Source of the DNA: the human T2T-CHM13v2.0 reference genome, Homo sapiens
Length of the DNA stretch: 64,000 nucleotides
Assembly: GCF_009914755.1 (NCBI RefSeq)
Contig: NC_060925.1
Strand: one strand, 5' to 3'
A program made the position numbers and the translations under genes. The notes under the pieces are model-generated. The model worked only from the letters and a program-made list of their open reading frames with translations. It was not told the origin of the DNA and searched no databases. This document shows positions 39,501-40,913 of this stretch, in pieces. How positions within the stretch are numbered: position 1 is the first letter of the stretch; each line of letters opens with the position of its first letter.

Positions 39501-40913
39501 GGAAACATAAGCTGTTGAGGGTAAGAGCTAGCTTTATATATGTTTGGCTAGCCTCCTGATTTCATACTGATTTAATTAAATATTTGATCTTAATTAAGAC
39601 AGGATATAGTTAATGTGCAAGTGATAATGTGGTTTCATTTAATGATTCTTCATGTTTGCCTATCAGAGGATTGATTTATTTCTTTTAGAAGAGTTAGGTC
39701 TGTATGATAAATTTTAGTTTAGGGATGGAAGTGTAAGCAGATGCCTGACTTCGTTTTTTGATTGAAATGACAGTTACATAATTCAATTCAATAGTTTTTT
39801 TCTTCTCTACTATTCAGCTCTTATAATGCACATGAGAGCAACAAAGTACTCAATGTTGTGTTTGACCATTTAAGTGTGACTGGTGGTACCTCAGAAATAA
39901 GACTTTCTGGTAAATTATAAAAGGTATATATGGTTTAATAAAATTACATTTCTGTATCTTGCAAAATATCCATTAATACCCTTGGCTAGGGGGTTCTTCA
40001 TGACTTTTAAAGGATAATAGAGGCTTAAGTCTCTGTCACTAGAGTTGTTTTTTTCTTTGTTGAATGACTAATACATTGAATCTCTCATTACTATGACATA
40101 TCGTCAGTTCTGGACTTGGTAGCAGTAATGCTTATCATCTCATCCTACATTTTGAACTCAGTTTATTGTAACGATTAGATGCTATAATGCCACAAATATT
40201 CGGGGGGAAAGGGATGATACATTAGGACTTTTAAAGAGAATGCCTTCATTATGATAATTTGCATCATGAGATGGTTGACCTACCTTGTATTTCTCCTTTT
40301 GCTTGGTGGCTTTTAGAGTTTTCAATGTTTAAGAAAAATTATAATATGTGCTAAGATATCCTTTTATAGGTCATGTTTATAGATCTTAAAAGACATCTCA
40401 TATCTTTATACAAAATTATCACACAAAAATAACTTGGTGTAAATGTATCTGTAAAACTTTCTGAGTGTCTTCATCTCTTAATCTTCTCTTCCACATGTAG
40501 TAGTATTCAGGGGTTTTTATTTATTTTTATATTTTTTTAACATCTCCCACACTTAGGAATTCATTGACTTTTAATCTGAAGGTACCTTAATTCATTCTAG
40601 CTTAGCCACTATTCAACTCGAGAAACTAAAAACTCCACGTCACATTTTAGTTGTTGCTGTAGCTGATAAACCCCACCTGTAGAATCTTGTCCATATTCTA
40701 TTACTCATTATTTTTTTTGTTTTGCACCCCAAATTAACTGATTCTTTTTGGTGATTTATCACATAGTAACTAAAAATTTATATTTATCACTAGTAAATAA
40801 AATCATTTTGATTTTAACTTTTTTTTTTTTTTTTTTTTTAATTTTCAGGGCACACGTGTTTCACGTTGACAGGTTTGCTTGGGACGCTAGTAACCATGGG
40901 CTTGCTGACTTAG
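3062..40913 (+). CDS. CD55: CD55/decay-accelerating factor, GPI-anchored 381-aa isoform; join(3062..3161,3678..3863,5855..6046,6918..7017,8048..8133,12404..12592,17989..18114,18625..18705,20696..20716,40849..40913)
   Basis: Exons translate to [44 protein letters not shown]...[21 protein letters not shown]. All introns are GT-AG. Lengths 100+186+192+100+86+189+126+81+21+65=1146 nt, i.e. 381 aa plus stop. Confidence 0.99.
3678..3863 (+). CDS. CD55: CD55 exon 2 (CCP/SCR1)
   Basis: ccctag|[21 protein letters not shown]...WSDIEEFCN; donor ATC|gtaagt. Confidence 0.98.
4270..4630 (-). mobile_element. Old L1M 3'-end fragment followed by TA/GGGAGA low-complexity repeat
   Basis: gtacatatttatagggtacatgtgata...; then (ATAT)n(GGGAGAG) units 4431-4630. 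Confidence 0.6.
5298..5390. repeat. 45-bp tandem duplication
   Basis: atttgtgggcaatctgtttacagRtgtaaatactttatgtataca x2, one mismatch. Confidence 0.95.
5855..6046 (+). CDS. CD55: CD55 exon 3 (CCP/SCR2)
   Basis: ttttag|[25 protein letters not shown]...WSTAVEFCK; donor AAA|gtgagt. Confidence 0.98.
6349..6648 (+). mobile_element. Alu, sense (intron 3)
   Basis: ggtcaggcatggtggctca...catctcaaaaaa; flanking repeat aagtctaag. Confidence 0.95.
6918..7017 (+). CDS. CD55: CD55 exon 4 (SCR3, first half)
   Basis: ttctag|[50 protein letters not shown]; donor AGG|gtaagt. Confidence 0.97.
8048..8133 (+). CDS. CD55: CD55 exon 5 (SCR3, second half)
   Basis: ctttag|[35 protein letters not shown]; donor GAG|gtaaga. 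Confidence 0.97.
10903..11207 (-). mobile_element. Alu (AluJ-type), antisense (intron 5)
   Basis: gagacagggtctcactctgttgccc...gatcacagctcactgcagcctcaacctcc. Confidence 0.92.
12404..12592 (+). CDS. CD55: CD55 exon 6 (SCR4)
   Basis: tttaag|[36 protein letters not shown]...WSGPPPECR; donor GAG|gtaatc. Confidence 0.97.
14750..16810 (+). mobile_element. Ancient degenerate L1M fragments (intron 6)
   Basis: A-rich sequence with L1 motifs (cacctagaattttatacccag; aaggatggaaaaatataccatgcaaat; ccacagtggaattaaactaga); boundaries approximate. Confidence 0.65.
17989..18114 (+). CDS. CD55: CD55 exon 7 (S/T/P-rich stalk)
   Basis: tcacag|[49 protein letters not shown]; weak donor AAG|gtacag. Confidence 0.96.
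17998..18560 (+). repeat. Degenerate 51-bp (17-codon) tandem repeat spanning exon 7 and intron 7
   Basis: Recurring unit like CCACCAACTCCTCAGAAACCCACCACAGTAAATGTTCCAGCTACA at ~51-nt period, decaying 3'. Confidence 0.9.
18115..18624 (+). CDS. CD55: CD55 intron 7: 510-nt stop-free in-frame mucin-like cassette, retained fully or to an internal donor after 18546 in long-stalk variants
   Basis: Reads [35 protein letters not shown]...SAHIT in frame with exons 7 and 8; 510=170 codons; internal donor CAC|gtaagt gives 432 nt=144 codons. Confidence 0.88.
18625..18705 (+). CDS. CD55: CD55 exon 8 (stalk)
   Basis: ttacag|[35 protein letters not shown]; donor CAG|gtcagt. Confidence 0.96.
20696..20716 (+). 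CDS. CD55: CD55 exon 9 (21-nt microexon, GTTRLLS)
   Basis: Long pyrimidine tract ...ctgtag|GTACTACCCGTCTTCTATCTG|gtaagt. Confidence 0.96.
21641..21966 (-). mobile_element. Alu (AluJ-type), antisense, exonized
   Basis: Diverged Alu; poly-T supplies the acceptor pyrimidine tract for exon 21690. Confidence 0.92.
21690..21807 (+). CDS. CD55: Alternative 118-nt Alu-derived exon of soluble DAF (440-aa isoform)
   Basis: gagacag|GT TCT CGT...TAC AG|gtgtgt; [40 protein letters not shown]; shifts the last exon to the frame ending at 40972; 1081+118+124=1323 nt. Confidence 0.93.
26011..26313 (-). mobile_element. Alu (AluS-type), antisense, inside L1
   Basis: gagacagagtctcattctgtc...gagccaccgcaccggg. 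Confidence 0.93.
28565..28858 (-). mobile_element. Alu (AluY/Sc-type), antisense, with TSD GGTAAACACATTTT
   Basis: Diagnostic gcaagctctgcctcccgggttcacgccattc; TSD at ~28555 and 28860. Confidence 0.93.
28746..28860 (+). CDS. CD55: Second alternative Alu-derived exon, 115 nt (predicted 439-aa non-GPI isoform)
   Basis: ttttcaatag|AG ACG GTG...GCC AG|gtaaac; [39 protein letters not shown], then the same alternative last-exon frame; matches my recall of a described DAF splice variant. Confidence 0.75.
28870..32835 (-). mobile_element. Antisense L1 (older L1PA/L1PB type), 5'-truncated
   Basis: 3'UTR and ORF2 remnants ([40 protein letters not shown]). Confidence 0.88.
30487..30778 (-). mobile_element. 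Alu (AluS-type), antisense, inside L1
   Basis: Flanking duplication gcagtatggccctttt on both sides. Confidence 0.93.
34340..34468 (-). mobile_element. Truncated Alu fragment with long poly-T
   Basis: T tract, then gacagggtctcactctgtcacccagg...gctcaagtgatc. Confidence 0.85.
35309..35401 (+). CDS. CD55: Alternative 93-nt exon with internal stop (predicted 384-aa non-GPI isoform ending [24 protein letters not shown])
   Basis: ttccactttgttag|CT CTG CAA...; TAG 35380-35382; donor GAG|gtaggt; matches my recall of a described DAF variant C-terminus. Confidence 0.7.
37447..37511 (+). pseudogene. CD55: Vestigial/cryptic transmembrane exon of CD55
   Basis: Branch-like tattaac (~37412-37418), pyrimidine tract tcttttccccttcaag|, donor AGA|gtgagc; in phase with exon 9 it encodes [22 protein letters not shown]. 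Confidence 0.72.
39035..39361. mobile_element. MER44/Tigger-type DNA transposon remnant
   Basis: TA-flanked cagta...cttatc and gataag...taatg ends; family call from recall. Confidence 0.6.
39818..39909 (+). CDS. CD55: Alternative 92-nt exon; relic cytoplasmic-tail exon ([30 protein letters not shown] in phase 2; [18 protein letters not shown] if joined to exon 9)
   Basis: Strong acceptor tttttttcttctctactattcag|, donor CTG|gtaaat; one frame is open throughout. Confidence 0.75.
40849..40913 (+). CDS. CD55: CD55 terminal exon coding part (GPI signal)
   Basis: Poly-T tract ...attttcag|[34 protein letters not shown]. Confidence 0.98.

What the first reader, a model, noticed from the sequence alone, without database searches (positions are those of the whole stretch)
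39818..39942. Relic cytoplasmic-tail exon resembling CR1/CD46 tails, open in the frame exon 9 does not supply
Seen: a 92-nt exon with a strong acceptor and donor CTG|gtaaat. In phase 2 it reads [30 protein letters not shown] without a stop and exits in phase 1 into the GPI frame of the last exon. Read-through gives ...RLSGKL* (TAA 39918-20) with AATAAA at 39937-42, so it could also act as a terminal exon. Joined directly to exon 9 it gives [18 protein letters not shown] (stop 39871-73, 36 nt before the junction, likely NMD-escaping; 378 aa, no anchor). From recall, the CR1 tail starts [16 protein letters not shown] and CD46 CYT1 KG-TYLTDETHREVKF, which match (S)[14 protein letters not shown]. 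Inference: this was the cytoplasmic exon paired with the TM exon at 37447 and has stayed open although its partner is frameshifted.
Basis: partly seen in the sequence, partly recalled or inferred. Interest (0 to 1): 0.82.

Follow-up and report, generated by a model that had tools for sequence, protein, structure and literature searches.

The report
Leftover tail exon in human CD55
A short stretch in the last intron of the human CD55 gene is the leftover of an exon that in squirrels, a bat and a hyena encodes the inner tail of a membrane-spanning form of this complement regulator, a form that humans appear no longer to make.

Summary
Window 39818-39909 is a 92-nt AG..GT-bounded segment. It is open in one frame (SYNAHESNK...IRLS) and reads on to GKL-TAA at 39918-20. 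AATAAA lies at 39937-42.

It is not a chance ORF. The 33-aa read-through peptide aligns end to end, with the stop at the same place, with the C-termini of predicted transmembrane CD55 isoforms. These come from three sciurid genera, the bat Rousettus and the striped hyena, and in all of them the tail directly follows a TM segment ending ..YGKSG (0 of 5000 shuffles each). It also matches the human CR1 tail exon (4 of 5000 shuffles). Resemblance to the CR2 and CD46 tails is not significant on its own, but all four exons start ag|C in the same phase, and CD55 and CD46 exon 13 end alike (AAAAG|GTAT).

The human TM exon (37447-37511) carries a net 8-nt loss. It now exits in phase 0, and the tail exon then reads LL-stop.

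No human or ape protein model found uses the tail, and its openness fits neutral drift. My reading is a relic exon of a CD46-like two-tail module. The GTAAAT "donor" is ancestrally coding (G-K).

The parts
39796..39817 (+). Polypyrimidine tract and AG acceptor of the relic tail exon
   Evidence: 90% pyrimidine in -22..-3, AG at 39816-17. The exon's first base C follows the AG, as in the CR1, CR2 and CD46 tail exons.
39818..39923 (+). Relic cytoplasmic-tail exon in its likely ancestral extent (106 nt): 1 base + 33 codons + TAA + AAG
   Evidence: The 33-aa ORF is orthologous to TM-CD55 tails of sciurids, bat and hyena. The 3' end AAAAG|GTATAT aligns with the CD46 exon 13 end AAAAG|GTATCT.
39818..39909 (+).
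   Evidence: The GT at 39910-11 lies inside codons that orthologs translate (S-G/D-K-L-stop).
39819..39917 (+). Open frame [33 protein letters not shown] (needs phase-2 entry)
   Evidence: Identity is 20 of 33 to marmot and 19 of 33 to bat. 0 of 5000 shuffles reach the score.
39918..39920 (+). TAA stop, at the same position as the stop of orthologous tails
   Evidence: the sciurid tails are 33 aa and end ..DKL, the bat tail ..GKL, the hyena tail ..GKF.
39937..39942 (+). AATAAA hexamer 17 nt after the stop; possible old or cryptic poly(A) signal, use unknown
   Evidence: sequence only.
37447..37511 (+). Relic transmembrane exon (65 nt), frameshifted at its 3' part. Reads [22 protein letters not shown] from exon 9 and exits in phase 0.
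   Evidence: The first 15 codons match ortholog TM segments in frame. ..DYGKS is found in another frame. There are 4 nt where orthologs have 4 codons. The chimp X14 and orang X5 models contain this exon's peptide.
40849..40972 (+). Last exon, read in two frames: GPI signal (to 40913) and, entered in phase 2, a 40-aa tail AHVFHVDRF...RLFLVS* orthologous to the second TM-CD55 tail of marmot and hyena
   Evidence: 0 of 2000 shuffles, 40 aa in human, marmot P0051 and hyena P0036/37.

Best explanation
Window 39818-39923 is the human orthologue of the cassette cytoplasmic-tail exon of transmembrane DAF (TM-CD55). It is homologous to the first cytoplasmic exon of CR1, and by position, phase and boundaries to those of CR2 and CD46 (exon 13, CYT1).

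Inferred ancestral layout:
- Exon 9 (phase 1) could go straight to the last exon, giving the GPI signal.
- Or it could go into a TM exon that exits in phase 2.
- The TM exon then joined either this tail exon, which carries its own stop (..S-G-K-L-TAA), or skipped it to the last exon. The last exon read in phase 2 gives a second 40-aa tail.

On the lineage to the great apes the TM exon lost a net 8 nt in the juxtamembrane K-I-F-W part. It now exits in phase 0, and the tail exon behind it reads Leu-Leu-stop. The tail exon is therefore an orphan that no known human transcript or protein model uses. Its intact frame is what neutral drift would often leave.

Shown: the homology, the phases, the frameshift, and the absence from the protein models I could search. 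Inferred: non-use in human tissue, the neutral state, and the ancestral 3' boundary.
For: - The sequence and frames are verified.
- Orthology: the tail follows ..YGKSG in Ictidomys P0028/P0030, Marmota P0044-46, Callospermophilus P0047/48, Rousettus P0049 and Hyaena P0041.
- Local alignment scores are 68-100, with 0 of 5000 shuffles reaching them for each of the 5 tested. The alignments run end to end with at most one 1-residue gap, and the stop is shared.
- Paralogy: the CR1 tail exon was fetched from the same genome (L016). 4 of 5000 shuffles reach the score and 4 of 3000.
- All four human exons start ag|C and are read from the second base.
- MAFFT puts the CD55 and CD46 exon ends AAAAG|GTAT in register.
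- TM frameshift. TM exon plus tail exon gives ..WKIRLL*.
- Second tail in the last exon.
- Non-use: the 41-aa open frame was searched against 5.8 billion proteins, including NCBI, UniRef and nr primate CD55 models. None scored at E<=10.
- None of the 53 CD55 proteins held shares a 6-mer with any frame of 39818-39923.
- The hub's RefSeq table lists no exon boundary at 39818.
- Neutrality is plausible: 13 of 297 single-base changes make a stop, and P(still open) is 0.33-0.81.
- Human-only changes number 8 against 3 marmot-only, with bat as outgroup.
Against: - No RNA data could be consulted, so low-level or tissue-restricted use of the 39818 acceptor in human is not excluded.
- The acceptor is strong, and two usable-looking donors and an AATAAA are intact.
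- The 8-versus-3 excess of human-lineage changes is not significant (one-sided binomial p=0.11). At 20 of 33 identical to marmot, the tail is only modestly below SCR4 (69% human to squirrel), so relaxed constraint is not demonstrated.
- The ortholog isoforms are mostly automatic gene models (names as given by the sources), not proven proteins.
- Three annotated alternative exons exit in phase 2 and could in principle feed the open frame.
- The age of the TM frameshift is known only to include chimp and orang.
- The neutral estimate uses divergence, indel and transition/transversion figures that I recalled, not measured.
Confidence: 0.8

Rival explanations
1. The exon is still a working alternative exon in human. 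It would be spliced behind an exon that exits in phase 2, for example the 118-nt alternative exon 21690-21807. This would give a secreted or otherwise anchored CD55 with a CR1-like C-terminus ending GKL.
For: The acceptor, frame, stop and AATAAA are intact. Exons 21690-21807, 28746-28860 and 31437-31521 each exit in phase 2 when entered from exon 9.
Against: No protein with this peptide turned up among the primate models searched. There is no such exon in the RefSeq table supplied. A cytoplasmic tail without a TM segment has no obvious role.
Confidence: 0.08
2. The segment acts as a premature-stop exon or alternative terminal exon joined directly to exon 9. That would give an anchorless 378-aa CD55 ending [18 protein letters not shown], a further soluble form or a way to lower GPI-CD55 output.
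For: The join and stop are verified. The AATAAA is at 39937-42.
Against: None of the 53 CD55 proteins held carries a 6-mer of that frame, and no such exon is annotated. The frame is not the one conserved in orthologs.
Confidence: 0.07
3. It is a chance open frame with chance splice-like signals in an AT-rich intron, unrelated to any tail exon.
For: 17% of 33-codon windows in the intron are open. Two other exon-like open segments pass the same crude filter.
Against: End-to-end alignment with five ortholog tails and a shared stop, with 0 of 5000 shuffles reaching the score for each. The CR1 match reaches 4 of 5000. Start and phase are identical in four paralogs. The position behind a TM exon is the correct one.
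Confidence: 0.01

Closest known systems
Cytoplasmic tail of predicted transmembrane CD55/DAF isoforms in Sciuridae (P0028, P0030, P0044-48), Rousettus aegyptiacus (P0049) and Hyaena hyaena (P0041)
   Same: The same 32-33 aa tail with the same stop. It sits directly behind a TM exon ending ..YGKSG. 19-20 of 33 residues are identical to human for marmot and bat.
   Different: In human the TM exon in front is frameshifted, and no model uses the tail. TM forms of DAF in mouse (a second gene) are in print (PMC3921935, passages read; Spicer 1995 seen only as a reference in PMC12165806). Those of guinea pig, rat and pig I only recall, and I could not obtain any of these sequences.
CD46 (MCP) exon 13 / CYT1 cassette with CYT2 in exon 14
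   Same: A short cassette exon (93 nt against 106 nt) behind the TM/anchor exon. It starts ag|C in phase 2, carries its own stop and ends AAAAG|GTAT. Skipping it puts a second tail in the last exon. That CD46 switches CYT1 and CYT2 in this way is established knowledge, recalled.
   Different: The peptide similarity is not significant (13 points; 3587 of 5000 shuffles reach it). The CD46 stop comes after 16 codons. The CD46 exon is in use in human.
CR1 (CD35) first cytoplasmic exon ([19 protein letters not shown]...)
   Same: The best paralog match: NAHE, K, HL and GG-S in order. 4 of 5000 shuffles reach the score. The ag|C start and phase are the same.
   Different: The CR1 exon has no stop and is spliced on in phase 2 to a last coding exon. 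CD55 has three extra codons.
Known human CD55 isoforms gDAF, sDAF, vDAF1-5
   Same: They arise from alternative exons in the same last intron. sDAF uses the phase-2 frame of the last exon (PMC4926246, passages read; the frame is seen in P0018 and P0043).
   Different: By the hub's exon table, none of the annotated alternative exons is 37447-37511 or 39818-39923.

Membership tests
Orthologue of the TM-CD55 (TM-DAF) cytoplasmic-tail exon | Significant sequence similarity over the whole tail | tested here: met
   scores 68-100, with 0 of 5000 shuffles reaching them for each of 5 orthologs; 20 of 33 identical to marmot and 19 of 33 to bat.
Orthologue of the TM-CD55 (TM-DAF) cytoplasmic-tail exon | Stop codon at the same position | tested here: met
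   human ..SGKL-TAA, sciurids ..SDKL-end, bat ..GKL-end, hyena ..SGKF-end.
Orthologue of the TM-CD55 (TM-DAF) cytoplasmic-tail exon | Lies between a TM exon and the last (GPI-signal) exon of CD55 | tested here: met
   The TM exon is at 37447-37511, the tail at 39818 and the last exon at 40849. In orthologs the TM peptide directly precedes the tail.
Orthologue of the TM-CD55 (TM-DAF) cytoplasmic-tail exon | Synteny at DNA level in other mammals | not testable with these tools
   No mammalian genome other than the window's own is held.
Orthologue of the TM-CD55 (TM-DAF) cytoplasmic-tail exon | Read in frame from the TM exon (working exon) | tested here: not met
   the human TM exon exits in phase 0, and the tail exon then reads LL*. 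Hence a relic, not a working member.
RCA-cluster cytoplasmic exon (CR1, CR2, CD46 CYT1) | Exon starts ag|C and is read from its second base (phase 2) | tested here: met
   for all four human genes. The boundaries of the paralogs are read from the sequence, not from an annotation.
RCA-cluster cytoplasmic exon (CR1, CR2, CD46 CYT1) | Peptide similarity | tested here: inconclusive
   Shuffles reaching the score: CR1 4 of 5000, CR2 2752 of 5000, CD46 3587 of 5000. For the bat tail: CR2 194 of 3000, CD46 252 of 3000.
Expressed human alternative exon | Appears in a transcript or protein model | tested here: not met
   One search found no protein. One search found a shared 6-mer in 0 of 53 proteins. 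The hub table has no exon boundary there; one annotated long exon, 28746-40914, merely runs across it unspliced. RNA reads were not testable.

The most novel reading that the evidence does not exclude
Great apes, human included, may still make a transmembrane CD55 from the frameshifted TM exon; automatic models in chimp and orang include it. The orphan tail exon may also still be spliced in some tissue. One route is behind the TM exon, where it would supply a Leu-Leu-stop end. Another is behind a phase-2 exon, where it would give a CR1-like tail. Either way, human CD55 would not be purely GPI-anchored or soluble.
Probability: 0.1. Interest if true: 0.55.

Novelty: new member of a known kind. 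Interest (0 to 1): 0.33.

Why it matters
Human CD55 is taught as a GPI-anchored protein, and its loss from the cell surface in PNH follows from that anchor. Two things follow from this finding. The human gene still carries both exons of a transmembrane version, a frameshifted TM exon and an intact but orphaned tail exon. And the frame used by soluble DAF in the last exon is the second tail of that old transmembrane form. Together these give a simple account of how the 3' end of the gene evolved: a CD46-like two-tail module plus a GPI option. They also explain why odd frames there are open. The practical consequences are small. The stretch could be a source of cryptic splicing, and it should be annotated as a relic exon.

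Tried and rejected
- Whole-genome search with the 30-aa peptide and with 301 nt of DNA found only the locus itself. The stretch is not a dispersed repeat, and the paralogs are too distant for that search.
- My first tblastn against 13 fetched stretches gave only noise (best E 0.69), because the CR1 tail exon lay outside them. It was found after fetching two more stretches.
The 41-aa open frame found nothing at E<=10. Human and sciurid tails share no 5-mer, so this blank speaks only to close (primate) relatives.
- The search of protein representatives with the 33-aa peptide gave one hit, P0054 (E 2.3e-4). It is an unrelated repetitive protein, which I rejected as chance. Clustering at 50% identity probably hides tail-bearing isoforms.
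- Six answered literature searches (one search was an argument error) found no paper describing a TM or tail relic in human CD55. The key subscription papers on guinea-pig, rat, mouse and pig DAF, and on vDAF1-5, are not in the library, so 'not in print' is not established.
- I considered the reading 'tail exon exits into the GPI frame' and rejected it as ancestral use, because orthologs translate through that GT.
- No dN/dS was possible, as no other mammal's DNA was available.
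Full report
**1. What is there**

- An AG lies at 39816-17, behind a tract that is 90% pyrimidine over -22..-3.
- The exon runs 39818-39909 (92 nt) and GTAAAT follows.
- Only one frame is open: [30 protein letters not shown]. It needs two bases from the exon in front (phase 2).
- Read through the GT, the frame continues G-K-L and stops at TAA 39918-20. 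AATAAA lies at 39937-42.
- The nine coding parts up to exon 9 sum to 1081 nt, so exon 9 supplies phase 1. A direct join reads [22 protein letters not shown] (378 aa).

Openness and splice-like signals by themselves are weak evidence.
- 3328 of 20033 windows of 33 codons in this intron are open.
- A crude filter of my own finds three open AG..GT segments in the 20-kb intron, this one included.
- The stretch is single-copy in the genome.

**2. Orthologues**

I searched with the SCR4 exon (window 12406-12591) for longer proteins. This returned 43 proteins at E<=0.001. All but a frog protein (P0002) and a few entries that carry no source name are named CD55 or DAF from primates, a ground squirrel, a tarsier and hyenas. 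A second search with the C-terminal 68 residues of the squirrel isoform added marmots, Callospermophilus and the bat Rousettus.

In Ictidomys (P0028, P0030), Marmota (P0044-46), Callospermophilus (P0047, P0048), Rousettus (P0049) and Hyaena (P0041) the protein ends with two parts:
- a TM segment, ..G[FL]VA..I.G.LIL..KI[FI]W[DH]YGKSG;
- then, directly behind it, a tail such as SYNTHENNKAVNVMFHNLSETDDTSEVRHSDKL in marmot.

The human read-through peptide aligns with these from first to last residue.
- The sciurid tails are 33 aa. The bat and hyena tails are 32 aa, each with one 1-residue gap.
- Scores are 68-100, and 0 of 5000 shuffles reach them in each of the five tests.
- Identity is 20 of 33 to marmot and 19 of 33 to bat.
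- The stop falls at the same place.

The exon carries its own stop.

**3. Paralogues**

From the same genome I fetched the 3' parts of CR2, CR1, CR1L and CD46 and located their tail exons.
- All four human exons begin ag|C and are read from the second base.
- The CR1 tail ([21 protein letters not shown]..) matches the CD55 peptide. 4 of 5000 shuffles reach the score, and 4 of 3000.
- The CR2 and CD46 CYT1 tails do not match significantly on their own (2752 and 3587 of 5000).
- They are linked to the family only weakly: CR1-CR2 76 of 3000, CR2-CD46 79 of 3000, bat DAF-CR2 194 of 3000.
- At DNA level MAFFT puts the end of CD46 exon 13 (93 nt..ATTAAAAG|GTATCT) in register with CD55 ..TATAAAAG|GTATAT at 39923|39924. 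This suggests a 106-nt ancestral exon.

**4. The partner exon**

Window 37447-37511 (65 nt, caag|G..AGA|GTGAGC) read from exon 9 gives [22 protein letters not shown] and exits in phase 0.
- Its first 15 codons match the orthologous TM segments.
- The conserved ..DYGKS is present, but in another frame.
- Between them human has 4 nt where the orthologues have four codons (K/R-I-F/I-W). That is a net loss of 8 nt.
- Behind this exon the tail exon reads Leu-Leu-stop.
- The same frameshifted reading (..GLWKIR) appears in automatic models of chimp (X14, P0005) and orang (X5, P0007). These splice the TM exon towards the last exon. The loss therefore predates the split of these apes. I could not date it further.

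**5. A second tail**

Other marmot, squirrel and hyena isoforms go from ..YGKSG to [29 protein letters not shown].. or the like. The human last exon entered in phase 2 (40850-40972) reads [44 protein letters not shown]. It is 40 aa, as in marmot P0051 and hyena P0036/37, and 0 of 2000 shuffles reach the score.

This is the frame used by frame-shifted human forms such as sDAF. The frame is seen in P0018 and P0043, and the isoform names come from PMC4926246 (passages read). The old gene thus had a CD46-like layout: a cassette tail with its own stop, or a second tail in the last exon when the cassette is skipped, besides the GPI reading of that same exon.

**6. Is the human exon used?**

- I searched the 41-aa natural open frame around it against 5.8 billion proteins, a set that demonstrably holds many primate CD55 models. 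Nothing scored at E<=10.
- None of the 53 CD55 proteins held shares a 6-mer with any of its three frames.
- The RefSeq table supplied by the hub has no exon boundary at 39818. Only a long unspliced exon, 28746-40914, runs across it.
- I had no RNA reads. Three annotated alternative exons would supply phase 2, so a rare in-frame use cannot be excluded.

**7. Selection or drift?**

- Only 13 of 297 single-base changes in the 33 codons create a stop.
- Using recalled divergence and indel figures, the chance of still being open and in frame is about 0.8 if the frame became useless at the orang split. It falls to about 0.3 for an early-primate loss.
- With bat as outgroup there are 8 human-only changes against 3 marmot-only changes (p=0.11).
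- This hints at relaxed constraint but does not prove it.
- 'Stayed open' therefore needs no selection.

**8. Print**

- Reviews state that human DAF is GPI-anchored and that mice have a second, transmembrane gene (PMC3921935, passages read; PMC12165806, passages and reference list).
- Known human isoforms are gDAF, sDAF and vDAF1-5 (PMC4926246, passages).
- Six answered searches turned up no description of these two relic exons in human.
- The primary papers on non-human TM-DAF and on vDAF are not in the searchable library. That guinea pig, rat and pig also have TM forms is my recollection only.

**9. Verdict**

The main refinement is that the exon ends in its own stop and is the counterpart of CD46 exon 13. 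It is most likely an unused relic. The finding is a tidy piece of gene history rather than a new kind of element.

Noticed in passing
window 40849-40972: The last CD55 exon is dual-coding. The phase-2 frame (AHVFHVDRF...RLFLVS*, 40 aa), used by frame-shifted human forms, is orthologous, with the same length and stop, to the tail that follows the TM exon in marmot and hyena isoforms.
   Followed up: partly
window 37447-37511 (and P0005, P0007): Automatic models of chimp (isoform X14) and orang (isoform X5) include the frameshifted TM exon. In human, TM exon plus last exon would read ..GLWKIRGTRVSR*, a type I membrane form with a very short tail.
   Followed up: partly
window 21690-21807, 28746-28860, 31437-31521: Each of these annotated alternative exons exits in phase 2 when entered from exon 9. 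That is the phase needed by both old cytoplasmic tails.
   Followed up: no
G000:C1 about 206.76-207.04 Mb (L011, L016): Measured against my recalled GRCh38 coordinates, the CD46 CYT1 exon lies about 18.5 kb closer to CD55 than expected. This fits the shorter CR1 allele (one LHR fewer) in this assembly. It rests on recalled coordinates only.
   Followed up: no
window 23340-23432 and 31930-31993: Two other AG..GT-bounded segments with one open frame passed my crude exon filter. Their peptides showed nothing recognisable, and I did not pursue them.
   Followed up: no
P0029, P0053: Squirrel and marmot models also join the TM exon to a further short end (..KSG-LS[IV]GDNH-stop). I did not look for its human counterpart.
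   Followed up: no
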